Source: a virus (Duplodnaviria > Heunggongvirae > Uroviricota > Caudoviricetes). Taken from it: DNA of 42,056 nucleotides. How positions within the stretch are numbered: position 1 is the first letter of the stretch; each line of letters starts with the position of its first letter. The stretch is taken from positions 1-42,056 of the IMG/VR virus record IMGVR_UViG_2917413769_000001, one strand, 5' to 3'. A model generated the notes under the pieces. The model saw only the letters and a list, made by a program, of their open reading frames with translations. It did not search any database and had not been told where the DNA came from. Position numbers and translations under genes: made by a program. Positions 25,869 through 41,756 of this stretch are shown here, piece by piece.

Positions 25869-25945
25869 TGGTCCGCCACCGGGGGCTCGAACCCCGTACA
25901 ATCAAATTAAAAGGCTGATGCTCTGTCCTGGTGAGCTAGTGGCGG
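25869..25945 (-). tRNA. tRNA-like element (possible phage tRNA or pseudo-tRNA; anticodon UUU if functional)
   Basis: Reverse complement folds as a cloverleaf: 7-bp acceptor CCGCCAC/GTGGCGG, D-stem GCTC/GAGC with GG loop, T-arm CGGGG-TTCGAGC-CCCCG, encoded CCA; anticodon stem weak (3 WC + 1 GU + 1 mismatch). Confidence 0.35.
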
Positions 25946-28602: not shown

Positions 28603-29206
28603 TCACCCTGCAAAGCTCAGCAACTGAGAAGCGGCGTTCTCCGCGTCGCGCTGCGTGGCAAAAGTGCGGGACAATATCCAGCGCCACAGAACATCGAGCG
28701 CGGCTTTATACAGCTGCTGGAACTCGATTTCGTCCATATTTGCGAATGAGATACTGCGGGGATGTTTGCGAAGTGTGCCGTCTGGCAACTGAATGGCGTC
28801 GTAATGCCCGTCCTCGACGATAACCCATGCGCGATAAGCATCGAATGATTTGCAGAGGCTGATCCCGTTCGTTACGCGGCGGTTTGCGACCTGATCCAGA
28901 TACTGTTCAGCAGCATCCAGAAGAGCGCCACCGTTGCCACCATATGCAGCCAGATAACTGGCATAGCCGGTAACCAGCTTGCGCTCATTGCTGGATATTG
29001 CGCCGCCTGTAGGTTCCCAGTATTCGAAACCGAGATTGAGGAGTGCGAAGAAGCGACGGTGAAACGCCGGATTGCGCACTTTTTTTAAACTCAGCCACCA
29101 GTACGTCGCCGAGTTTGATTTTTGATTGCAGAATATCGCTGGTCTCGGGCGTAGCCGGGATCAGTATTCCTGTGTAGTGCTTAATGAGTTGTAGTTCATG
29201 CGCCAT
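28603..29206 (-). pseudogene. nin-region protein (YbcN/DUF1367-like?) split by frameshift at an A7 run
   Basis: Upstream ORF (start 29206) and downstream 158-aa ORF overlap in different frames; removing one A from the run at 29080-29086 joins ...AEFKK to VRNPAFHRRFF... Confidence 0.35.
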
Positions 29207-29269
29207 GGGAGTTACTCCGTGGCGCAAAGTCATCAGGTTCTGGTTGTTCAGACCAGTTGCTTAATTATG

Positions 29270-29509
29270 CTAGAAATACAGTAAAATGGTCAATTTTTTT
29301 GACATCATTTCTTTGATGACTTCTGCTAGTGTGGCTTTGGACCAATAGAGATCGTCTTTGTTGAGTTTTCGGCTCAAAATTTCCCCACCAACCGACGACA
29401 GAATAAATCGATCAAAGGAAACTAAATTAAAGGACAAAACTTCGCGGCCACAGGCATCTGTGATGGTCGCTCTAAATTCTCCAGTAAGATCTGAGTAAAT
29501 TGTAGCCAC
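29270..29509 (-). CDS. Hypothetical small protein (AT-rich moron)
   Basis: 79 aa; GTG start preceded by AAGGAGG at 7-nt spacing; AT-rich island. Confidence 0.4.
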   Translation of the reverse strand: MATIYSDLTGEFRATITDACGREVLSFNLVSFDRFILSSVGGEILSRKLNKDDLYWSKATLAEVIKEMMSKKLTILLYF

Positions 29510-29609
29510 AATATTTCCTCCTTAGCGACATCCAGACGCAATAAGAAACTCCTGGTAGCCGCACTGGAAGAATTCACTCAAATCAATTTGCCGCTACCAT
29601 GCAAAACAA

Positions 29610-29843
29610 TTAATAAAACCAGTCGTCGGCACTTTCCCATGTCTCTTGCAGGATACGTTCGACTTCATTCTTTTCCCCACCGAATATAACAAGGCCATCA
29701 CTACTTGCACGCTTAATAATTAGCTTGCAATCATCAAACTGCTTACTTAGGCGTTTTAATAGTTCAGTCTCAAGAGCCGGGACTGCCCCAACAGGAAGTT
29801 TCTTTATGCAATCAATGGTTAACTCGACTTTCACGCCCGCCAA
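29610..29843 (-). CDS. Hypothetical small protein (AT-rich moron)
   Basis: About 75 aa; same strand and island as preceding gene; start codon uncertain (TTG/GTG). Confidence 0.35.
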   Translation of the reverse strand: MAGVKVELTIDCIKKLPVGAVPALETELLKRLSKQFDDCKLIIKRASSDGLVIFGGEKNEVERILQETWESADDWFY

Positions 29844-30045
29844 TTACTGTATATGCATACAGCTTCTTTATAAACCTCTAATTTGAGTTTTGCAATGTTT
29901 TGAAAGCACGATTTGCGAATCACTCCACAGAAAAAACATAAAAAAACCGCCGAATTACGAAGAGATCCACTGTGATTGTATGCGGTGCATCCTGGACAAA
30001 ATACCATCAACGGAAACGTCAAGGTGTTCTGAAATTGAGACAGAT

Positions 30046-30156
30046 TCAATTAATATCTTTCGCTAACCAGAACAGTAGAAAGGCGATTGCCAGGATACTG
30101 CTACTGATTGTGCTGAAAACTACGGCTTGCGCCAGGAGGGTGTACGTTAGTTTCAT
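30046..30156 (-). CDS. Small hydrophobic membrane peptide (36 aa), toxin-like
   Basis: Absent from ORF track (under 60 aa); MKLTYTLLAQAVVFSTISSSILAIAFLLFWLAKDIN; RBS AGGGAG 9 nt upstream of ATG. Confidence 0.3.
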   Translation of the reverse strand: MKLTYTLLAQAVVFSTISSSILAIAFLLFWLAKDIN

Positions 30157-32242: not shown

Positions 32243-32521
32243 TTAAAGTGCTGTCGGTTCGTCAGTTTTGGCGGAGTGCTTAAAGACCATCTCAACGCAC
32301 AAAAAAACGCAGTCCTGACAGATTGAGACGCCTGGTCCGGCGACAAGAACGCCAGCAACTTCAACATTCGTCTTTCCGCAAAACGAGCATTTGTGTGTTG
32401 GCTGGATGTTTACCTCGGTACTGGTTACTGACATACTGGCCTCGCAATAACTCTCCGTTTTTGCAATCGAAGACTGCCTGTGTTGGCGCACAACAGTCTT
32501 CACCCATTCGATATCGTTCAT
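32243..32521 (-). CDS. Stand-alone ClpX zinc-binding-domain (ZBD) homolog
   Basis: [37 protein letters not shown] aligns with the ClpX N-terminal C4 zinc finger ([30 protein letters not shown], from memory); no AAA+ domain follows; alternative start at 32434. Confidence 0.55.
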
Positions 32522-32528
32522 GCCGACC

Positions 32529-33071
32529 TCACACCATACCCGGAGCCAGAGCAGCTATGCCGCTGATGACCTGCCCCATGGCTTCAGCAGGGAGCATCGC
32601 AAGCAGATGCTGAATTCCCTCACGAACTTCTTTCACCATCTGGTGATGAGGAGCGTTAAGCATCACAGCCTGTTTCGCTTCACTGATTTCCTTCTCCATC
32701 GCTGCATAACGCGTCATGAAACAATCCTGTCCGATGAGGCGCCCTCGAAATTCCAGCGGCAAAACAGCCAGGATTGCAGGAGTCAGCTGGCGGATGTTTT
32801 CGCGCGCATATCCGGTATCGCTGTCCAGCCAGCGGAAAAGCTTCTGCCGCTTACGGCTCAGGTCGTCAGGAAAATCCAGCCCGGCGCCGCCCTGCCGCTC
32901 CCATTCCTCAACGATGCTCCCGGCAACCACATCCTGGTTGTCCAGCGATGCCGACCACGCACGAACGGCAGCACGAATCTGGTCATGCTTATCCGCCGGA
33001 TCAGGTTGATTGCGATTTATCATCGCAGCGGGTGGAAACCCGGTATTTTGTTGGAATGAAATTGAATTCAC
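32529..33071 (-). CDS. Hypothetical early protein (cII/YdaT-like position)
   Basis: 180-aa ORF between cro-like gene and replication genes; no motif recognised. Confidence 0.3.
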
Positions 33072-33073
33072 GG

Positions 33074-33310
33074 TTATGCCCTCGCATCCTGCGCCGGTAA
33101 TCCATCCGTGGGGTTCGGATAGGCCGCAGGATCAATTTCGTGTGGTGTAACTTGCCAGTTCAAGAATTGGCAAAACGCACGAACACGAGAAGTTGGAACT
33201 TTCCCCGAGTTCAACCAGCGGCTAACCGCTTGCGAGGAGAGTCCCATAGCCTCCCCAATGGCTGTTTGAGTAGTGATAGATTTAACTTTACTTTTGAGTT
33301 GATCGTTCAT
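33074..33310 (-). CDS. Cro-like HTH transcriptional regulator
   Basis: 78 aa; HTH QTAIGEAMGLSSQAVSRWLN; AGGAGG RBS; divergent from repressor gene across operator region. Confidence 0.55.
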   Translation of the reverse strand: MNDQLKSKVKSITTQTAIGEAMGLSSQAVSRWLNSGKVPTSRVRAFCQFLNWQVTPHEIDPAAYPNPTDGLPAQDARA

Positions 33311-33344
33311 AACGCCTCCTTTGGCTGGAATTAAGCATATACAC

Positions 33345-33398
33345 TGAAATTTAATATTTCAATACATTACATCAATCTGTTTCAGTTACTTCTGAAAC
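33345..33398. promoter_or_regulatory. OR-like operator region: two inverted repeats sharing half-site TGAAA(Y)
   Basis: TGAAAT-N5-ATTTCA at 33345-33361 and GTTTCAG-N6-CTGAAAC at 33379-33398, in the 101-bp cro/cI intergenic region. Confidence 0.45.
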
Positions 33399-33411
33399 AC
33401 GCGGTTGTAAA

Positions 33412-33834
33412 ATGGCAATTATGAATACTGATACCAATCAAATTTTTGCTTACCGATTCAATCAATCGGCTGCAGAGCACAACTGGAATCTATCTGAAAT
33501 AGCCCGTCGCGTAGGAGTTACGCCGCAGGCGGTACAGAAGTGGGCGAAAGGATCGTCAGTACCTCGAGGAAAGAAGTTAAAGCAACTAGCTGACGTTATG
33601 GGTCGGCCTGAACATTGGTTCTTCATGGCTCCCAATGCAGAAAGTGGGGAGGTAATTTCTCAGCAATCAATTCTCAAAAAGCTTGATGTAACTGAAGAAG
33701 CACTGCTTTCAATCTTCAATCAGCTCCCCGAGTCAGAAAAACATCGATTGATTCTCCACGCTAAAGGTGTATTGCAAGACCTGCAATCACTGAAAGATGA
33801 CGTAAGCGATCTGATTAAACACCTCAAAAACTAA
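33412..33834 (+). CDS. CI-like repressor (HTH; no LexA/S24 autocleavage domain seen)
   Basis: 140 aa; HTH LSEIARRVGVTPQAVQKWAKG; C-terminal half lacks a Ser-Lys peptidase-like motif. Confidence 0.55.
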   Translation: MAIMNTDTNQIFAYRFNQSAAEHNWNLSEIARRVGVTPQAVQKWAKGSSVPRGKKLKQLADVMGRPEHWFFMAPNAESGEVISQQSILKKLDVTEEALLSIFNQLPESEKHRLILHAKGVLQDLQSLKDDVSDLIKHLKN

Positions 33835-33896
33835 CCTTCCCTTTCAATAGCACTGGCAATGTCCGGTGTTTTGCACGCCATTAATTACTAATTAAA

Positions 33897-33936
33897 GTTT
33901 CATGTTCTTGACAAATGAAACTCAATGTTGTAGTTT
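33897..33936 (+). promoter_or_regulatory. OL/pL-like element: operator half-sites flanking a -35 TTGACA
   Basis: GTTTCA-N13-TGAAAC at 33897-33921 encloses TTGACA (33908-33913); candidate -10 TAGTTT at 33931-33936 (17-nt spacer). Confidence 0.35.
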
Positions 33937-34013
33937 TAGCTACATCGACAACAAGCGCATCGTTGTCAGGTGAAACGTTCCGCTGGCCGGCGACAAGGCA
34001 TCGAGAGGGTGAG

Positions 34014-34271
34014 ATGGATAAATCAAAAGCCGTGTTGGCAGTGGCTATAAAAGTGGTGGAGTTCATTCAGGCTCAGCTGAAAGCGACTAGCCTGACGGAT
34101 CTCAAAACTAAAGATGTAGCCGAATGCTTAGTGGCGGCCGCAAGTTCAAACCGCCTGGAGCTACAAAAGCTGGCAAAAAAAGCCAGCTTAAAGGTCAGGC
34201 GTCCTTACCGGGACAGATGTTCGCCCATAAACGACTTTAGCAAATATGCCATGTATATGACCACAATTTGA
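34014..34271 (+). CDS. Hypothetical protein, first gene of leftward operon
   Basis: Start moved to internal ATG at 34014 (GAGGG RBS) because the annotated ATG at 33915 lies inside the operator palindrome; overlaps a convergent minus-strand gene. Confidence 0.3.
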   Translation: MDKSKAVLAVAIKVVEFIQAQLKATSLTDLKTKDVAECLVAAASSNRLELQKLAKKASLKVRRPYRDRCSPINDFSKYAMYMTTI

Positions 34272-34899: not shown

Positions 34900-35036
34900 C
34901 GTAAAAACCCGCCGAAGCGGGCCTGTACGTCCGGTGCCACCAACCAAAGTACACCGGAAATTACACAAAACCAATGAACACCCAATGGGCGCTACCAATG
35001 GCCCGGGGATTATACATCCAAAATTGAGGATCTCAT

Positions 35037-37919
35037 ATGGAATTCTTCTACGTGGTTAAAGCCACTCAGAAATCTGGCAAACCAGATGCAGTCGTCTGGT
35101 TCACTGCGAAAACCGAAGCCCGCGCCAATCTTCGACTCGACGTTGCGCTGGAAGAGGCAGAAATCGAAACCGGTCGCGGGCAGGACTACAACAAACCTGC
35201 ACGTACTAATTTTCCGGTAGTTGATGATCTTCCAGAAGAAGGCGTTGTGGATTTAACCTGGTGCGATCGCTATGAGCTGAAAGAGGACGGCATCAACTGG
35301 GAAAAAATAGTGGTGGCCGAAGTACCCGCGGCGACGGAAGTCACCGCGAACGGCGGCGAAACCATTGACCCTGATCTCAGGGTTGATGCGGACGACGACG
35401 ATAAAACCGAATATCCGGTTGCAGAAATGGCCTTCAGCCGTCGACTGCTCTCGCAGTTCATCAGCGATGCGACAGCCCATCACATCAATCATTCTCAGCG
35501 TGTTCAGATTATCAAGCTGTCACAGGATGATGAAAACCACTATGTCCAAAACCTGCTTCTTGCGGTCAGAAATGTCCCCGAGCTGGAAAAGTTAAGTACG
35601 GCGCAGCTCTGGAAATTCACTGACGCAATCAAAACTGTTTTCCATACAGAAAAACGTCATGAGCTGTCAATCGTCCTCCGTTTCACCAGAATATGGGCTG
35701 CAAATGATTACATTGACCGTGGCATCCTGGCTCGCGAGTGGGCTGCCGGTAATCGCATCAGTAGCGTGCAGCGTACTGATTCCGGAACCAATGCCAACGG
35801 CGGTTACGTCACTGACCGTGGCGAAGGTGCACACCACACGCTGGATACTCTCGATTCAGAGATTGCCTGCGCCCTTCTGCCTATGGACTTCAACCACTTC
35901 GAGATCCCGGGCAGCATTCTTCGTCGCGCTAAAGAAATCGTGACCAAAAAAGAAGAGCCGTGGAAATCATGGAGCACCATTCTGCGCAATCAACCCGGCG
36001 TTCTTGGCGTTAACCGCACAGCTATTTTTAACCTGATACGTATCGCGCCGGAAAATATTCACCTGACGCCGGTTGCTCATCTGGAGTTCGTTAACCAGAC
36101 CATGACAGCTGAGTTCAATTCCGCGGTTGAGTTATTGCCATTGCATGAAGCTGAGCCCGCAACACAGGGTATTCCCCAACCTGAAAGTAAGGAGCCTCCG
36201 CGCAAATCCTTCTGCACTCACGAAGAGTACCTGAAACGCGTGTGTGAAGAAGGAGCACGCCGCCGCGCAGAGGAGGCGGCAGCACAACCACATAAAGCCG
36301 AACAAGAACTGGTTAAAAATGTCGGAAACGGAATATTCGACGTTACGGCTTTACTGCAGAACTCAGCAACTCATGGCACGAAAAAGGCTACGGAAACCAC
36401 CAGCAATGTGCAGGTTCAAGAAACTGTCAGTGATGAAAAACAGGTTGGTAATGAAATGCAGTCAGGCGAAAGCAGTCTGGAAACTGGTGAAGAGTCACAT
36501 CCCGGCCAGCAGGCCGATGTAAACCAAAATACGGAATCTGTCGCCCAAAATAGCGATTCTGTAAACCAGACTGAACCAGTTTTGGCACACGCCGAGCCAG
36601 AGGCGCAATCTGACGAACAAGCGGTTGTTTACCCCGCTTACTTCGAGCCTGGTCGCTATGAAGGTCTGCCGAACGAGGTTTACCACGCCGCCAACGGCAT
36701 CAGTTCCACCCAGGTAAAAGATGCGCGCGTTTCGCTGATGTACTTCAATGCGCGCCACGTTGAGAAAACCATCGTCAAAGAGCGATCCGCAGTGCTGGAC
36801 ATGGGAAACCTGGTACATGCGCTGGCGTTGCAGCCAGAGCAGCTCGATGAAGAATTTAGCGTTGAACCCGTAATTCCGGAAGGCGCATTTACCACCACGG
36901 CAACGATCCGCTCGTTTATTGATGCGTACAACGCCAGCCTGCCAGCGCAACTGAGCGCAGACGATATCAAAGCTTTGCTGGAAAAGTACAACGCCACCCT
37001 GCCAGCGCTGGTGTCGCTGGGCGCTGGCCTGGATGAAACGGCGCAGAACTATATGGCGCTGCCAGCTGAATTCCAACGTATCGATGCAGACCAGAAGAAG
37101 ACAGCAACAGCAATGAAGGCGTGCATCAAAGAGTACAACGCCACCCTGCCAGCGCAGATTAAAACCAGCGGCAGCCGCGACGCGCTACTCGAACAACTTG
37201 CGATTATCAATCCTGACCGGGTCGCGCAGGAAGCTCAGAAGCTGCAACCGCTGAAAGTCTCTGGCACGAAGGCCGATCTGATTCTGGCAGTGAAAGCTGT
37301 CAACCCGGAAGCCGTATTTGCCGACGAACTGATCGATGCATGGCGCGAAAACCCGGAAGAAAAAGTACTGGTTACCCGCCAGCAACTGAGTACCGCATTA
37401 GCCATTCAGAAAGCCCTTCTTCAGCACCCGACCGCCGGCAAGCTGCTGACTCACCCGAGCCGAGCCGTTGAGGTGAGCTACTTCGGGTTTGACGACGAAA
37501 CTGGGCTGGAAGTCCGTGTGCGTCCGGATCTGGAAATCGACCTGGACGGCGTGCGTGTCGGCGCAGACCTGAAAACCATCAGTATGTGGAGTGTTAAGCA
37601 GGAAAGCCTGCGCGCCAGGCTACACCGGGAAATTATTGAACGTGATTATCACCTGAGCGCGGCTATGTACTGCGAAACCGCGGCGCTGGATCAGTTCTTC
37701 TGGATATTCGTCAACAAAGACGAGAACTACCACTGGATCGCCATTATTGAGGCATCCGCAGACCTGCTGGAACTGGGCATGCTTGAGTACCGCAAAATGA
37801 TGCGCGCTATTGCAACCGGCTTCGACACTGGGGAATGGCCAGCGCCGATCATTGATGATTACACCGACGAACTTAACGACTTCGACCTGCGCCGCCTTGA
37901 AGCGCTGCGACTGGCTTAA
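35037..37919 (+). CDS. recE: RecE-like exonuclease VIII (C-terminal PD-(D/E)xK nuclease)
   Basis: 960 aa; N-terminal NFPVVDDLPEEG and DRGILAREWAAGNRIS...GGYVTDRGEG resemble RecE as recalled; C-terminal VRPDLEIDLDG...ADLKT nuclease motif; followed by RecT-like gene. Confidence 0.75.
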   Translation: MEFFYVVKATQKSGKPDAVVWFTAKTEARANLRLDVALEEAEIETGRGQDYNKPARTNFPVVDDLPEEGVVDLTWCDRYELKEDGINWEKIVVAEVPAATEVTANGGETIDPDLRVDADDDDKTEYPVAEMAFSRRLLSQFISDATAHHINHSQRVQIIKLSQDDENHYVQNLLLAVRNVPELEKLSTAQLWKFTDAIKTVFHTEKRHELSIVLRFTRIWAANDYIDRGILAREWAAGNRISSVQRTDSGTNANGGYVTDRGEGAHHTLDTLDSEIACALLPMDFNHFEIPGSILRRAKEIVTKKEEPWKSWSTILRNQPGVLGVNRTAIFNLIRIAPENIHLTPVAHLEFVNQTMTAEFNSAVELLPLHEAEPATQGIPQPESKEPPRKSFCTHEEYLKRVCEEGARRRAEEAAAQPHKAEQELVKNVGNGIFDVTALLQNSATHGTKKATETTSNVQVQETVSDEKQVGNEMQSGESSLETGEESHPGQQADVNQNTESVAQNSDSVNQTEPVLAHAEPEAQSDEQAVVYPAYFEPGRYEGLPNEVYHAANGISSTQVKDARVSLMYFNARHVEKTIVKERSAVLDMGNLVHALALQPEQLDEEFSVEPVIPEGAFTTTATIRSFIDAYNASLPAQLSADDIKALLEKYNATLPALVSLGAGLDETAQNYMALPAEFQRIDADQKKTATAMKACIKEYNATLPAQIKTSGSRDALLEQLAIINPDRVAQEAQKLQPLKVSGTKADLILAVKAVNPEAVFADELIDAWRENPEEKVLVTRQQLSTALAIQKALLQHPTAGKLLTHPSRAVEVSYFGFDDETGLEVRVRPDLEIDLDGVRVGADLKTISMWSVKQESLRARLHREIIERDYHLSAAMYCETAALDQFFWIFVNKDENYHWIAIIEASADLLELGMLEYRKMMRAIATGFDTGEWPAPIIDDYTDELNDFDLRRLEALRLA

Positions 37920-38629
37920 TGGAGGATTTGACCATGCAAAATACTAACATCATCACGACTGAGCAGGCTCCAAATACCATTTCTGCCAGTAACGCAGTAT
38001 TCAACGTTCAGGCTCTCGGGCAGTTGACCGCCTTTGCTGACTTGATGGCGCAATCAGCGGTAACCGTTCCTGCGCACCTGGCGGGTAAGCCCGCCGACTG
38101 TATGGCGATCGTCATGCAGGCGATGCAGTGGGGCATGAACCCCTACGCCGTTGCGCAGAAAACACATCTGGTTAACGGTGTGCTGGGCTATGAGGCTCAA
38201 CTGGTCAATGCCGTGATTGCCAGCTCAAACGCCATCAAGGGCCGGTTCCATTATCGCTATGGCGGAGAGTGGGAGCGCTGCACCCGCACGCAGGAAGTCA
38301 CGCGGGAGAAACACGGGAAGAACGGGAAATACAATGTCACCGAGCGCGTGCGCGGATGGACTGATGAAGACGAAATCGGCCTTTACGTCGAGGTTGGCGC
38401 CGCCCTGCGCGGTGAGACTGAAATCACCTGGGGTGAGCCGATCTACCTGTCAGGTGTTGTCACTCGCAACTCGCCGCTTTGGGTGTCGAACCCGAAACAA
38501 CAGATCGCGTACCTGGCTGTGAAGTATTGGGCCCGCCTCTACTGCCCTGAGGTCATTCTTGGCGTCTACAGCCTGATGAAGTTGATCAGCGTGAAGAGCG
38601 CGAAATTAACCCGGCACCACAGCGTATGA
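37919..38629 (+). CDS. recT: RecT/Bet-family single-strand annealing protein
   Basis: 236 aa; QWGMNPYAVAQKTHLVNGV resembles the Bet/RecT QYGLNPW region; start overlaps recE stop. Confidence 0.55.
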   Translation: MEDLTMQNTNIITTEQAPNTISASNAVFNVQALGQLTAFADLMAQSAVTVPAHLAGKPADCMAIVMQAMQWGMNPYAVAQKTHLVNGVLGYEAQLVNAVIASSNAIKGRFHYRYGGEWERCTRTQEVTREKHGKNGKYNVTERVRGWTDEDEIGLYVEVGAALRGETEITWGEPIYLSGVVTRNSPLWVSNPKQQIAYLAVKYWARLYCPEVILGVYSLMKLISVKSAKLTRHHSV

Positions 38630-39039
38630 GTCTGACCGAAATCGCCGATGGAAAAGCCGATGCGTCCACAGGCTCACAGGAACCAGTAGTGAGCATCGAC
38701 GCTATCGCCGATGGGTTCCGCGCACGCATCGAAACAGCAGAGACACTGGAATCAGCCTCCGCTGTCGGTAACGACATCAACGAAGCAAAAGCCACGCTCG
38801 GCACTGCGCTGTTCACCGAGCTGAAGAATAAGGCGACACGCCGCTATCACCAGGTTAACGCCAAAAACAAAGTTGACGCAGTGATCAACTCGCTGCCGCA
38901 GCCGGGTGAACCTGATGCTGCAGAGCGGTTCGCCGAAGCTGAGCGAACGCTGGCCGCCGCGAAACGCCATCTCGGCGACGAGCTGCACGACAAGTACAGC
39001 ATCACCCTCACGGATATGAAACCGGAATACGTGGGCTAA
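38626..39039 (+). CDS. Hypothetical acidic protein
   Basis: 137 aa; ATG overlaps recT stop (ATGA). Confidence 0.35.
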   Translation: MSLTEIADGKADASTGSQEPVVSIDAIADGFRARIETAETLESASAVGNDINEAKATLGTALFTELKNKATRRYHQVNAKNKVDAVINSLPQPGEPDAAERFAEAERTLAAAKRHLGDELHDKYSITLTDMKPEYVG

Positions 39040-40299: not shown

Positions 40300-40624
40300 A
40301 ATGGCAATTCCAGCGAAAAAGGCGGCTGAAATTCTGGATGTTTCAACCAGGACTATTTACCAGTTGATTAACTCAGGGCAGTTGGCCGGTAAGAAGATAG
40401 GCAATAAGTATCGAACAACCGCATCAGCATGCCTTGCATATTTGTATTCCCCGCAAGAAACTAAACAGGCGAACGCGGGTGATCATAAAGGAGATAATTT
40501 ATGTCAATCACCCTCAGAGGCGGTGTGTGGCACTGTCATTTCTTTACGCCGTCAGGAAAAAGAGTTAGACGCTCTCTTGGTACGGGGGACAAAAAGCAAG
40601 CGCAGGAACTGCACGACAAACTGA
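40286..40624 (+). CDS. xis: Excisionase (Xis/AlpA-type HTH)
   Basis: [31 protein letters not shown]; directly upstream of and overlapping integrase. Confidence 0.55.
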
Positions 40625-41664
40625 AGGCAGAGGCGTGGCGGGTAGATAAGATAGGGGATCTTCCGTCCAGATCTTTTGAAGAATGTTGCATCCGCTGGAT
40701 ACGGGAAAAAGAGCACAAGCGTGCTCTTGATGATGACAAAACCAAGATAGAGTTTTTTCTGCAACATTTTTCGGGCAGGGACATTTCGTCTATTACGGCG
40801 AATGATGTATACGGCGTCGTCGAAGGGATGACCAACAGAAAACATTATCAGAACTGGGTTAGCAGCAGGGACGCTGCAATCAGGAAAGGAAAGGAACCAC
40901 CGGAATACAAGCCAAAGCTGGTTAGCCAGGAGACAAGGGCACAGCATCTGTCATTTATGCGGGGTCTTTTCCGTATAGCTGAGAAGGACTGGCTCTGGAT
41001 AAAGGATGCACCTGTTATCAAGGTGAGAAAGCCAGGGAGCAAGCGTATCCGCTGGCTCACTAAAGATGAGGCCTCACGGCTAATCGAATGCGTTTCTGAT
41101 GATTTAAAGCCGGTCGTTACTTTTGCGCTGGCGACAGGACTTCGGCGCTCTAACATTATCAACCTGGAATGGCAGCAGGTCGATATGCAAAGGAAAATTG
41201 CCTGGGTAAATCCAGAGGACGCTAAAGCGGGAAAGGCTATCGGCGTAGCCCTGAATGATACCGCATGCAAAGTGCTTCGCGATCAGATTGGAAAACATTC
41301 CAGGTGGGTTTTTGTCTACACGAAAGCAAAACATCGACCTGATGGAACAATCACCCCCGCAGTCAGGAAAATGAGTCTCGGTAACCATAAAGGATGGGAT
41401 GCGGGTCTGAAGCGAGCCGGAATCGAAAATTTTCGCTTCCACGACCTGCGCCATACCTGGGCAAGCTGGCTGGTTCAGTCCGGTGTCCCGTTATCCATTT
41501 TACAGGAAATGGGTGGATGGGAATCGATTGAAATGGTCCAGAGATATGCGCACCTGGCCCCTAATCATTTAACGGAGCACGCACGGAAAATTGATCTGAT
41601 TTTTGGAAGCAGCGACACAAATACGACACAGGAAATAAGTCAGGCAGGATTGAGGATAGCGTAA
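40501..41664 (+). CDS. int: Tyrosine integrase, P22-like family
   Basis: 387 aa; catalytic-region motifs [14 protein letters not shown] and VQRYAHL; close resemblance to P22 Int as recalled; ends 16 nt from a tRNA gene. Confidence 0.9.
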
Positions 41665-41679
41665 TTCATTGATTTATAA

Positions 41680-41756
41680 TGGCGCGCCCTGCAGGATTCG
41701 AACCTGCGGCCCACGACTTAGAAGGTCGTTGCTCTATCCAACTGAGCTAAGGGCGC
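41680..41756 (-). tRNA. argU: tRNA-Arg (anticodon UCU), argU-type
   Basis: Reverse complement GCGCCCTTAGCTCAGTTGGATAGAGCAACGACCTTCTAAGTCGTGGGCCGCAGGTTCGAATCCTGCAGGGCGCGCCA: 7-bp acceptor, D-loop GG, anticodon loop CUUCUAA, T-loop TTCGAAT, encoded CCA. Confidence 0.9.

What the first reader, a model, noticed from the sequence alone, without database searches (positions are those of the whole stretch)
33345..33936. Operators sharing half-site TGAAA(Y) flank a repressor with no autocleavage domain
Three inverted repeats with the same half-site are found: two in the cI/cro intergenic region and one after the repressor gene, where it encloses a -35 TTGACA (pL-like). Spacer lengths differ (5, 6 and 13 nt). 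The 140-aa repressor has an HTH but no recognisable LexA/S24-type domain, implying induction via an antirepressor or another signal rather than RecA-stimulated cleavage; no antirepressor gene is evident in the window.
Basis: partly seen in the sequence, partly recalled or inferred. Interest (0 to 1): 0.4.

Follow-up and report, generated by a model that had tools for sequence, protein, structure and literature searches.

The report
Gifsy-type prophage repressor–operator switch

Summary
The three inverted repeats, the TTGACA and the HTH-only repressor are all present at the stated coordinates. The repressor is 50% identical over its full length to Gifsy-1/2 GtgR. It is probably 137 aa, made from a leaderless mRNA starting at ATG 33421. 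An AF2 model is all-helical with no S24 fold.

The claim that no antirepressor is present is wrong. The only perfect LexA box in the window (29847-29862) overlaps a promoter for a DinI homologue. A GTG-initiated 79-aa ORF (29270-29509, minus strand) follows, and it is 55% identical to the proven Gifsy-2 antirepressor GftA, in the same gene order.

The operators are better read as five 17-bp sites of one geometry (6-N5-6). Three lie between PR and PRM (33345-61, 33368-84, 33393-409) and two flank the -35 of pL (33886-902, 33916-32). In 20 distinct related OR sequences the half-sites of the two outer OR sites (33345-61, 33393-409) are 82-100% conserved, against about 53% for their N5 centres. 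The pL pair keeps its 30-bp spacing where 1.45 kb is inserted after the repressor gene.

Verdict: a new member of the known Gifsy-type antirepressor switch. Binding and induction are inferred, not shown.

The parts
33421..33834 (+). Repressor gene. It encodes 137 aa from ATG 33421; the mechanical ORF starts at 33412 and gives 140 aa. Domains: N-terminal HTH, a disordered linker, and a C-terminal helical hairpin.
   Evidence: Pfam HTH_3 only. 50% identity over the full length to Gifsy-2 GtgR, E 2e-45. The 100% identical database protein P0001 is 137 aa. AF2 mean pLDDT 80.7, all helices. No S24 fold among Foldseek matches.
33074..33310 (-). Cro-like gene (YdaS family HTH), first gene of the rightward early operon. 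The YdaT/CII-like gene follows at 32529-33071.
   Evidence: Pfam YdaS_toxin 31 bits and YdaT_toxin 156 bits. PHROG 35 and PHROG 163, 'CII-like activator'. SD GGAGG lies 4 nt before the ATG.
33334..33362 (-). Predicted PR: -35 TTGAAA (33362-33357), 17-nt spacer, -10 TATGCT (33339-33334).
   Evidence: It is the only promoter-like hit of the consensus scan in 33250-34100. AGCATA is identical in 19 of 20 related sequences. The TSS has not been mapped.
33345..33361 (.). Operator Ox (OR1-like): TGAAAT-ttaat-ATTTCA. It lies between the -35 and -10 of PR.
   Evidence: Perfect 6-bp arms. Group A relatives have TGAAAC-N5-GTTTCA, a symmetric double change; the more distant groups B and C have an asymmetric CGAAAG left half. 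Pairwise identity across all 20 sequences is 0.82 for the left half, 0.98 for the right half and 0.54 for the N5 centre; among the 12 group A sequences both halves are 0.97.
33368..33384 (.). Operator Oy (OR2-like): TACATC-aatct-GTTTCA. It ends 1 nt before the PRM -35-like hexamer. It is the weakest match.
   Evidence: A site is found at the same offset (-44) in most related loci. In group C it is TGAAAC-N5-GTTGTA, flipped relative to the window.
33393..33409 (.). Operator Oz (OR3-like): TGAAAC-acgcg-GTTGTA. It overlaps the spacer and the first 2 nt of the PRM -10.
   Evidence: GTTGTA is identical in 20 of 20 and TGAAAC in 18 of 20 distinct OR sequences. There are 10 different N5 centres, with identity 0.52.
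33385..33413 (+). Predicted PRM: weak -35-like GTTACT (33385-90), 17 nt, -10 TAAAAT (33408-13). The ATG at 33421 lies 7 nt after the -10, giving a leaderless mRNA.
   Evidence: TAAAAT and the distance to the ATG are conserved in all relatives, and neither ATG has an SD. By analogy, leaderless racR and lambda cI transcripts are documented (PMC9638921). This is inferred, not mapped.
33851..33872 (+). Weak terminator-like hairpin after the repressor gene: CACTGG-caatgt-CCGGTG followed by TTTT.
   Evidence: Read from the sequence. Relatives have a clearer hairpin plus T-run at the same place. It falls below the threshold of the terminator scan.
33886..33902 (.). Operator OL2: TACTAA-ttaaa-GTTTCA, ending 5 nt upstream of the pL -35.
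   Evidence: The site is conserved as TACTAA-N5-GTTTCA in group A loci other than L016 (which has TTATAA there), always 30 bp before OL1. This holds in L002 and L006, where the pair lies 1.45 kb further from the repressor gene.
33908..33936 (+). Predicted pL: -35 TTGACA (33908-13), 17 nt, -10 TAGTTT (33931-36).
   Evidence: Read from the sequence. Relatives have TTGACT or TTTACA at the same place. The layout matches PRM: -35, then 2 nt, then a 17-bp operator whose last TA begins the -10.
33916..33932 (.). Operator OL1: TGAAAC-tcaat-GTTGTA. It covers the pL spacer and the start of the -10.
   Evidence: It is a direct repeat of Oz (family D2). Across relatives it is conserved as TGAAA[CT]-N5-GTTG[TC]A with variable N5.
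29847..29862 (-). LexA box CTGTATGCATATACAG, 4 nt after the -10 of a TTGCAA-17-TATAAA promoter (29895-29867).
   Evidence: It is the only perfect CTGT-N8-ACAG in 42 kb. Its position relative to dinI is the same as in Gifsy-2 (box at L001 2178) and in L033.
29610..29834 (-). DinI homologue (GTG start at 29834), first gene of the SOS operon.
   Evidence: Pfam DinI 73 bits. 58% identity to Gifsy-2 DinI.
29270..29509 (-). Antirepressor gene: 79 aa, GTG start, SD GGAGG 7 nt upstream. It is a homologue of Gifsy-2 GftA.
   Evidence: 55% identity over 69 aa to Gifsy-2 STM1020.1n (GftA), E 9e-27. The gene order is the same as in Gifsy-2: LexA box, dinI, a small GTG ORF, then the next downstream gene (a DUF1367 gene here; irsA in Gifsy-2 per PMC3121763, equivalence not tested) (PMC3121763).
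33941..34003 (+). Conserved 63-nt leader at the 5' end of the predicted pL transcript. It has a 12-bp hairpin, a conserved single-stranded stretch and a short second hairpin. Its function is unknown.
   Evidence: 89% identity to Gifsy-1 and Gifsy-2. 90% mean column identity across heteroimmune relatives. Three pairs show double changes. No Rfam family matches.

Best explanation
The region is the genetic switch of a Gifsy/Rac-type lambdoid prophage.

Repressor and operators. A 137-aa repressor has an N-terminal 434/P22-like HTH and a C-terminal helical dimerisation hairpin. It is made from a leaderless PRM transcript. It binds as a dimer to 17-bp operators of the form TGAAAC-N5-GTTTCA, and a variant half-site TACAAC/GTTGTA is also used. 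Three operators, with centres 23 and 25 bp apart, lie between the divergent promoters:
- Ox sits inside PR and blocks the cro-like/cII-like/replication operon.
- Oy abuts the PRM -35.
- Oz overlaps the PRM -10 and gives negative autoregulation.
Two more operators, with centres 30 bp apart, bracket the -35 of pL and block the early-left (recE/recT) operon.

Induction. The repressor is not cleaved. DNA damage inactivates host LexA, which derepresses a separate phage operon (LexA box-dinI-antirepressor, 29270-29895, minus strand). The 79-aa antirepressor then binds the repressor and takes it off the DNA, as shown for GftA/GtgR.

What is shown here: the sequence homology, the gene order, the fold class, and the conservation pattern of the sites. 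What is inferred: DNA binding, occupancy order, cooperativity, transcription start sites, and that this antirepressor targets this repressor.
For: Repressor identity:
- Full-length 50% identity to GtgR, whose non-cleavage and antirepressor control were shown experimentally (PMC3121763).
- HTH_3 is the only Pfam domain.
- The AF2 model is all-helical with no beta-rich peptidase domain. Foldseek returns HTH proteins, including SinR/SinI and the phi106 repressor-AimX complex, and no S24 protein.

Antirepressor:
- There is a single perfect LexA box between a promoter and a DinI homologue.
- A GTG-initiated ORF follows, 55% identical to GftA.
- L033 repeats the same arrangement with its own LexA box.
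- Among 50,697 phage records, the only three with an antirepressor homologue (Gifsy-1, Gifsy-2, Klebsiella ST16-OXA48phi5.1) are also the three best repressor hits.

Operators:
- 6-N5-6 sites occur at the same offsets (about -68, -44, -19, +473, +503) in relatives whose repressors are 48-77% identical.
- In L002 and L006 the pL pair sits at +1922/+1952, moved by an insertion.
- Pairwise identity of the Ox and Oz half-sites is 0.82-1.00 across all 20 sequences (0.97-1.00 within group A), against 0.52-0.54 for their N5 centres.
- Oz and OL1 are the same unit, TGAAAC-N5-GTTGTA, placed identically relative to the -10 of two different promoters.
- Gifsy-2 can be parsed in the same way: TAAAAC-N5-GTTCCA, TCAATC-N5-GTTCCA and AGAAAC-N5-GTTGTA. 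All three lie inside the le127-le128 fragment that GtgR shifts in EMSA (PMC3121763).
- RacR, a more distant relative, has three footprinted fixed-geometry operators and a leaderless transcript (PMC9638921).
Against: - No binding, footprint, TSS or induction data exist for this phage.
- Within the window alone, Oy, Oz, OL1 and OL2 are poor palindromes (3-4 of 6).
- The 8-bp spacer between Oy and Oz is invariant in group A, so IR2 as a unit is also conserved there.
- The consensus used for the cluster statistic was derived from the same sites.
- The PRM -35 is weak, and the promoter scan did not call PRM or pL.
- The related IMG/VR loci did not show the antirepressor module within 5 kb, so co-inheritance with this immunity type is documented only in four phages.
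- Two neighbouring genes are split (DUF1367 and recT), so the prophage may be decaying or the assembly may carry indels.
- Gifsy antirepressors can be non-cognate (PMC3121763), so the pairing here is not guaranteed.
Confidence: 0.75

Rival explanations
1. The repressor recognises three inverted repeats of TGAAA(Y) with spacers of 5, 6 and 13 nt as three operators, two in OR and one enclosing the pL -35.
For: IR2 and IR3 have perfect 8-bp arms and IR1 has perfect 6-bp arms. IR2, including its spacer, is invariant in the 12 group A sequences. The 13-nt inner spacing of IR3 is kept in group A.
Against: IR1 has the opposite half-site orientation to IR2 and IR3. Centre-to-centre distances of 12, 13 and 18 bp cannot fit one dimer geometry. 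The model does not explain why GTTGTA sits exactly 5 nt after TGAAAC at both PRM and pL in every relative while the 5 nt vary. In group C the IR2 equivalent is GTTGTA-N8-CGAAAC (4 of 6), while the 6-N5-6 sites persist.
Confidence: 0.13
2. The repressor is of the Gifsy type, but the in-window antirepressor is not its inducer. Induction would depend on an antirepressor from another prophage, or the element is a non-inducible, decaying prophage kept silent by an essential RacR-like repressor.
For: Cross-talk and non-cognate pairs are documented: GtgR is also inactivated by Fels-1 FsoA, and GfoA acts on GfhR (PMC3121763). DUF1367 and recT are each split into two ORFs. RacR-type repressors persist in cryptic prophages (PMC5700373 and PMC5700377, listed).
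Against: The repressor and antirepressor are each most similar to the cognate Gifsy-2 pair GtgR and GftA (50% and 55%). The antirepressor ORF is intact, with a strong SD and a perfect LexA box. The window carries a full set of late, lysis, Q, integrase and excisionase genes.
Confidence: 0.1
3. The repressor is inactivated by proteolysis. This could be cryptic RecA-stimulated self-cleavage or degradation by a host protease, for example linked to the ClpX-zinc-finger ORF next to cII. An antirepressor would not be needed.
For: A small ClpX-ZBD-like ORF lies in the early-right operon. The linker at residues 74-85 is disordered.
Against: There is no S24 domain, no Ala-Gly and no beta-rich C-terminal domain. 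Homologues GfoR, GftR and GfhR are not cleaved on induction (PMC3121763).
Confidence: 0.03

Closest known systems
Gifsy-1/-2/-3 repressors (GfoR, GtgR/GftR, GfhR) with LexA-controlled antirepressors GfoA, GftA and GfhA (Lemire, Figueroa-Bossi & Bossi 2011, PMC3121763)
   Same: - The repressor is the same length and aligns over its full length to GtgR at 50% identity.
- The antirepressor is 55% identical to GftA and also starts with GTG.
- The gene order is the same: LexA box, dinI, antirepressor, then the next downstream gene (irsA in Gifsy-2, a DUF1367 gene here; their equivalence was not tested).
- The early-left operon is the same: ydaE-like gene, isrB-like sRNA, recE, recT.
- The pL leader sequence is shared.
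- The OR and OL layout can be parsed identically in Gifsy-2.
   Different: The HTH recognition helix differs (VTPQAVQKW here, LSHTSVRKW in GtgR). The outer half-site bases differ too (TGAAAC here, TAAAAC/TAGAAC/GTTCCA in Gifsy-2), so the immunity specificity is probably different. The host is an Escherichia species and not Salmonella. Nothing has been tested experimentally here.
Phage lambda OR/OL with CI, Cro, PR, PRM and pL
   Same: - Three 17-bp pseudo-palindromic operators, about 23-25 bp apart, lie between divergent promoters.
- One operator lies inside PR, one abuts the PRM -35 and one lies over PRM.
- The repressor mRNA is leaderless.
- There are further operators at pL.
   Different: The repressor has no S24 autocleavage domain, so RecA does not act on it directly. 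Only two OL sites are recognisable. PRM and pL share the same operator/-35/operator cassette. The operator sequence is unrelated to lambda's.
RacR/YdaS/YdaT of the E. coli Rac prophage, and DicA/DicC with the Rem antirepressor of Qin
   Same: The repressors are short and HTH-only. The Cro and CII analogues here belong to the YdaS and YdaT families. RacR has three footprinted fixed-geometry operators and a leaderless transcript (PMC9638921). DicA is relieved by a small antirepressor that was found through its similarity to GfoA (PMC10448788).
   Different: Similarity of this repressor to the RacR and DicA family models is weak: 17 bits and 44 bits, far below the curated cut-offs of 200 and 101. 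The RacR operator is TAGGC-n3-GCCTA. Rac and Qin are cryptic prophages.
Coliphage 186 Tum, N15 AntC, and B. subtilis SinR/SinI
   Same: Tum and AntC are LexA-controlled antirepressors. SinR is an HTH protein with a helical C-terminal domain that is bound by a small antagonist (Foldseek rank 2).
   Different: There is no sequence homology to Tum, AntC or SinI. The structural match to SinR is weak (TM 0.41, rmsd above 10 Å over the full length).

Membership tests
Gifsy-type antirepressor-controlled lambdoid immunity system | A short (about 135-140 aa) repressor homologous to GtgR/GfoR | tested here: met
   137 aa. BLASTP against Gifsy-2 GtgR gives 50% identity over 137 aa, E 2e-45. tblastn ranks Gifsy-1 and Gifsy-2 second and third.
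Gifsy-type antirepressor-controlled lambdoid immunity system | The repressor lacks the S24/LexA-type autocleavage domain and the Ala-Gly site | tested here: met
   Only HTH families match in Pfam. There is no AG dipeptide. The AF2 model is all-helical. No peptidase appears among 599 Foldseek matches at E<=10, of which the top 50 were listed.
Gifsy-type antirepressor-controlled lambdoid immunity system | A small antirepressor gene homologous to GftA/GfoA lies outside the immunity region, downstream of a dinI homologue | tested here: met
   ORF 29270-29509 (minus strand) is 55% identical to GftA, E 9e-27. The DinI gene at 29610-29834 scores 73 bits in Pfam. The operon lies 3.5 kb from the repressor gene.
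Gifsy-type antirepressor-controlled lambdoid immunity system | The antirepressor operon is under direct LexA control (a LexA box at its promoter) | tested here: met
   A perfect CTGT-N8-ACAG lies at 29847-29862, 4 nt after the -10 TATAAA. This is met at sequence level only; LexA binding was not tested.
Gifsy-type antirepressor-controlled lambdoid immunity system | The repressor is not cleaved on induction, and the antirepressor binds it and releases it from the operator | not testable with these tools
   This needs Western blots, pull-downs and EMSA. Prediction of the two-chain complex is not available here.
Lambda-like tripartite OR switch | Three operators of one geometry lie between divergent PR and PRM and overlap both promoters | tested here: met
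   Ox, Oy and Oz are each 17 bp, with centres at 33353, 33376 and 33401. Conservation of the half-sites against the N5 centres supports them. PR was found by the scan; PRM is inferred.
Lambda-like tripartite OR switch | Cooperative, ordered occupancy, with activation of PRM from the middle site | not testable with these tools
   Only the positions are suggestive: Oy ends 1 nt before the PRM -35-like hexamer.
LexA/lambda CI (S24) cleavable repressors | A C-terminal S24 peptidase domain with a Ser-Lys dyad | tested here: not met
   PDB sequence hits cover only residues 3-70, the HTH.
RacR (NCBIfam NF049929) / DicA (NF007257) equivalogs | A score above the curated family cut-off | tested here: not met
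   RacR scores 17.1 bits against a cut-off of 200. DicA scores 44.1 bits against a cut-off of 101. These are related folds and roles, not the same family.

The most novel reading that the evidence does not exclude
Two readings are not excluded by the evidence.

(a) The 63-nt leader at 33941-34003 starts the pL transcript. It is about 90% conserved across heteroimmune Gifsy-like phages even though the first downstream ORF differs. It could be an undescribed cis-acting RNA, for example a nut/put-like antitermination or stability element for the early-left operon. It has no Rfam family, and these phages have no recognisable N protein.

(b) The perfect long palindromes formed by the inner half-sites around the PRM and pL -35 elements could be selected in their own right. 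They might position two repressor dimers head-to-head as a tetramer that clamps the -35 hexamer.
Probability: 0.25. Interest if true: 0.5.

Novelty: new member of a known kind. Interest (0 to 1): 0.2.

Why it matters
Practically, the result shows that this prophage is wired into the host SOS response through LexA and a small antirepressor, not through RecA-stimulated repressor cleavage. That predicts it will be induced by DNA-damaging antibiotics, will not be inducible in lexA(Ind-) hosts, and may cross-talk with co-resident Gifsy-like prophages. It also gives a concrete and testable operator map for this immunity type: five 17-bp sites, with a family-wide AAC-N5-GTT core in the well-conserved sites. 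The same map fits Gifsy-2, for which the source paper gives no operator sequences. It does not change the general picture of phage regulation.

Tried and rejected
- Megablast of the immunity region against 5,426 E. coli genomes and 50,697 phage records found only patchy hits: ydaT/cII at about 75% and the pL leader at 89%. No near-identical annotated phage was found.
- The genome-contig scan gave only two useful relatives. The IMG/VR scan gave the rest.
- Self-complementarity scoring of 6-mers at spacers of 0-15 nt in the window's OR and OL did not favour any spacer length. The window alone cannot decide between the operator models.
- The whole-window count of the palindrome consensus is barely above chance: 5 against 2.3 at up to 2 mismatches.
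- The antirepressor and dinI were searched for in the 5-kb flanks of the related loci. Only Gifsy-2 had them. A close-relative scan of IMG/VR found one further locus, L033.
It was rerun as A2.
- A profile search of PDB sequences found only HTH domains.
- For the pL leader: no Rfam hit at gathering or at E<=10, no second copy in the window or the loci with a purpose-built covariance model, no match in the HK022 put region, and nothing in the literature search.
- A PHROG scan of ten further accessory ORFs found no second antirepressor, and no Ant/KilAC/Bro-type protein.
Full report
**Context**

The window is a lambdoid prophage.
- An integrase (40501-41664) sits next to a tRNA (41683-41756).
- The early-left operon on the plus strand carries a ydaE-like gene, recE (35037-37919) and recT.
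- The early-right operon on the minus strand carries a YdaS-family Cro-like gene (33074-33310), a YdaT-family CII-like gene (32529-33071), a ClpX-zinc-finger ORF, O-like and DnaC-like replication genes, then Q, holin and structural genes.
- The exact repressor protein is on record from Escherichia sp. E1130.

**1. Checking the observation**

- IR1: TGAAAT-ttaat-ATTTCA (33345-33361).
- IR2: TGTTTCAG-ttactt-CTGAAACA (33378-33399).
- IR3: AGTTTCAT-N11-ATGAAACT (33896-33922), with TTGACA at 33908-33913 inside it.

The repressor ORF matches only HTH families.

Two caveats apply.
- IR1 has its half-sites in the opposite relative orientation to IR2 and IR3.
- Within this one sequence the repeats are not statistically compelling. 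TGAAAC occurs 37 times against 29 expected in the window. The AT-rich intergenic DNA contains chance 6-mer inverted repeats at every spacer length.

The evidence that they matter therefore has to come from comparison with related loci.

**2. The repressor**

- It is 50% identical over its whole length to GtgR, the repressor of Gifsy-2 and of LT2 Gifsy-1 (E 2e-45). It is 52% identical to the CI of Klebsiella phage ST16-OXA48phi5.1.
- An AF2 model (mean pLDDT 80.7) has a five-helix HTH domain (residues 3-68), a disordered linker (74-85) and a C-terminal helical hairpin (90-136), with no beta structure.
- Foldseek against the PDB returns HTH proteins, among them SinR/SinI and a phage repressor-AimX complex. 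No S24 peptidase appears.
- A profile search of PDB sequences matches only the HTH, to 434 and P22 C2.
- The protein has no Ala-Gly dipeptide.
- The most conserved part of the family is the C-terminal hairpin. That would fit a shared dimerisation and antirepressor-binding surface, which is an inference.

The start codon is probably ATG 33421, not 33412, for these reasons.
- The database copy of the protein is 137 aa.
- Neither ATG has a Shine-Dalgarno sequence.
- A conserved TAAAAT (33408-33413) lies 7 nt upstream of ATG 33421.
- In the group B relatives the upstream ATG is out of frame, and an in-frame TAA precedes the second ATG.

This points to a leaderless mRNA, as documented for lambda cI and racR (PMC9638921).

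**3. The antirepressor is in the window**

Lemire et al. (PMC3121763) established the following for the Gifsy prophages.
- The repressors are not cleaved on induction.
- Induction needs LexA cleavage.
- A LexA box next to a dinI homologue controls a small GUG-initiated antirepressor gene (gftA/gfoA) lying between dinI and irsA.
- GftA releases GtgR from operator DNA.

The window holds the same arrangement.
- The only perfect CTGT-N8-ACAG in 42 kb is CTGTATGCATATACAG at 29847-29862.
- On the minus strand it lies 4 nt downstream of TTGCAA-17-TATAAA and 12 nt upstream of a DinI homologue at 29610-29834 (Pfam 73 bits).
- A GGAGG-preceded, GTG-initiated 79-aa ORF follows at 29270-29509. It is 55% identical to Gifsy-2 STM1020.1n, which is GftA (E 9e-27).
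- A DUF1367 gene comes next.
- A further IMG/VR locus, L033, repeats the order: LexA box, dinI, GTG-antirepressor, DUF1367.
- Of 50,697 phage records, the only three with an antirepressor homologue are the three best repressor hits.

**4. Re-reading the operators**

Relatives with repressors 48-77% identical were collected: two genomes and 26 IMG/VR loci. Aligning their cro-repressor intergenic regions gave 20 distinct sequences. The alignment shows three blocks of the form 6-N5-6.
- Ox: [T/C]GAAA[C/T/G]-N5-[G/A]TTTCA.
- Oy: variable in sequence.
- Oz: [T/C]GAAAC-N5-GTTGTA.

Pairwise identity is 0.82-1.00 for the Ox and Oz half-sites across all 20 sequences (0.97-1.00 within group A). It is only 0.52-0.54 for their central five bases, which take 10 different sequences each. 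The window's Ox differs from its group A relatives by a symmetric double change, TGAAAT/ATTTCA against TGAAAC/GTTTCA.

The same unit as Oz, TGAAAC-N5-GTTGTA, recurs after the repressor gene as OL1 (33916-33932; direct repeat D2). A second site, OL2 (TACTAA-N5-GTTTCA, 33886-33902), begins 30 bp before it.

A scan with a consensus taken from the window finds sites at the same offsets in every relative: about -68, -44, -19, +473 and +503. In L002 and L006 a 1.45-kb insertion separates the repressor gene from pL, and the OL pair has moved with pL while keeping its 30-bp spacing.

In group C, Oy is TGAAAC-N5-GTTGTA, flipped relative to the window.

IR2 and IR3 are therefore best read as the facing inner half-sites of Oy/Oz and OL2/OL1. 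This removes the puzzle of the spacers of 5, 6 and 13.

Gifsy-2 can be parsed identically.
- OR: TAAAAC-tttag-GTTCCA, TCAATC-taata-GTTCCA and AGAAAC-tgaag-GTTGTA. All three lie within the le127-le128 fragment that GtgR shifts in EMSA.
- OL: TAGAAC-tttta-GTTGCA and TCGAAC-ctttg-GTTTTA (PMC3121763).
- The well-conserved sites of the family share a core of AAC-N5-GTT.

On clustering, three such sites within 70 bp never occurred in 300 dinucleotide shuffles. The consensus came from these same sites, however, so I weigh the comparative evidence more heavily.

**5. Promoters and likely mechanism**

- PR (minus strand) is TTGAAA(33362-57)-17-TATGCT(33339-34). It is the only promoter called by the scan, and its -10 is invariant in relatives. 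Ox lies between its hexamers.
- PRM (inferred) is GTTACT(33385-90)-17-TAAAAT(33408-13). Oy ends 1 nt before its -35, and Oz covers its spacer and the first two bases of its -10.
- pL is TTGACA(33908-13)-17-TAGTTT(33931-36). OL1 is in exactly the Oz position, and OL2 lies upstream of the -35.
- Relative to the predicted PRM start, the operator centres are at about -68, -45 and -20. From memory, lambda's are close to -66, -42 and -19.

The inferred mechanism has three parts. Repressor dimers on Ox (and Oy) shut PR. A dimer on Oy may help PRM, and Oz gives negative autoregulation. OL1 and OL2 shut pL. SOS induction removes LexA from the dinI-antirepressor promoter, and the antirepressor then strips the repressor from the DNA.

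**6. Comparison with what is known, and novelty**

This is a new member of the Gifsy-type antirepressor switch. RacR/YdaS (three footprinted operators; PMC9638921) and DicA/Rem (PMC10448788) are more distant analogues. Scores against the curated RacR and DicA models are far below their cut-offs, so the repressor is not a member of those equivalogs. The operator map is a modest new detail, not a new principle.

**7. Weak points**

- Nothing here demonstrates binding, transcription start sites or induction.
I give it about 0.13.
- The cognate pairing of this antirepressor with this repressor is inferred from parallel similarity to GftA and GtgR.
- Two split genes (DUF1367 at an A7 run, and recT) raise the possibility of prophage decay or of assembly indels.

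**8. A side observation**

The 63 nt that begin the predicted pL transcript (33941-34003) are 89% identical to Gifsy-1 and Gifsy-2 and about 90% conserved across heteroimmune relatives, although the first ORF downstream differs between loci.
- They form a 12-bp hairpin, a conserved single-stranded stretch and a short second hairpin. Three pairs show double changes.
- There is no Rfam family.
- There is one copy per locus.
- There is no match to the HK022 put region.
- Only 1 of 5,426 E. coli genomes carries it.
- Its function is unexplained.

Noticed in passing
window 33941-34003 (+): A conserved 63-nt leader sits at the 5' end of the predicted pL transcript. It has a 12-bp hairpin, a conserved unpaired stretch AAACGUUCCGCUGG and a short second hairpin. 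It is about 90% conserved across heteroimmune Gifsy-like phages whose first downstream ORFs differ. It has no Rfam family, occurs once per locus, and shows no similarity to HK022 put. Its function is unknown.
   Followed up: partly
window 28603-29233 (-), A7 run at 29080-29086: The DUF1367 gene downstream of the antirepressor is split into two ORFs (28985-29233 and 28603-29079) by a one-base frame change in a run of seven A. The homologue in L033 is a single 259-aa ORF. This could be a real pseudogene, a slippery site or a homopolymer assembly error.
   Followed up: partly
window 37919-39039 (+): The RecT-like gene also appears split into two ORFs (37919-38629 and 38626-39039). They match consecutive parts of the same PHROG profile (positions 271-464 and 500-619). 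Gifsy-2 RecT is a single 369-aa gene.
   Followed up: no
window 34902-34996 (-): An isrB-like Hfq-binding sRNA (Rfam RF01386, 41.7 bits against a gathering score of 35) lies between the ydaE-like gene and recE. The IsrB-1 ncRNA is known from Gifsy-2.
   Followed up: no
window 32243-32521 (-): A 92-aa ORF with a ClpX-type C4 zinc finger (Pfam 43.8 bits) lies between the cII-like ydaT gene and the O-like replication gene, and overlaps the start of the mechanical O-like ORF.
   Followed up: no
window 30046-30156 (-): A 36-aa, strongly hydrophobic ORF (MKLTYTLLAQAVVFSTISSSILAIAFLLFWLAKDIN) lies about 180 bp upstream of the LexA-controlled promoter. It may be a small membrane peptide or a type I toxin-like gene.
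   Followed up: no
L002 6415-7920 and L006 (equivalent region): In two relatives about 1.45 kb of unrelated DNA, a probable moron, is inserted between the repressor gene and the OL/pL module. This served as a natural experiment showing that the OL1/OL2 pair travels with pL.
   Followed up: partly
window 25872-25945 (-): A second, phage-internal tRNA gene (Rfam tRNA 48 bits) lies near the lysis and late-gene boundary.
   Followed up: no
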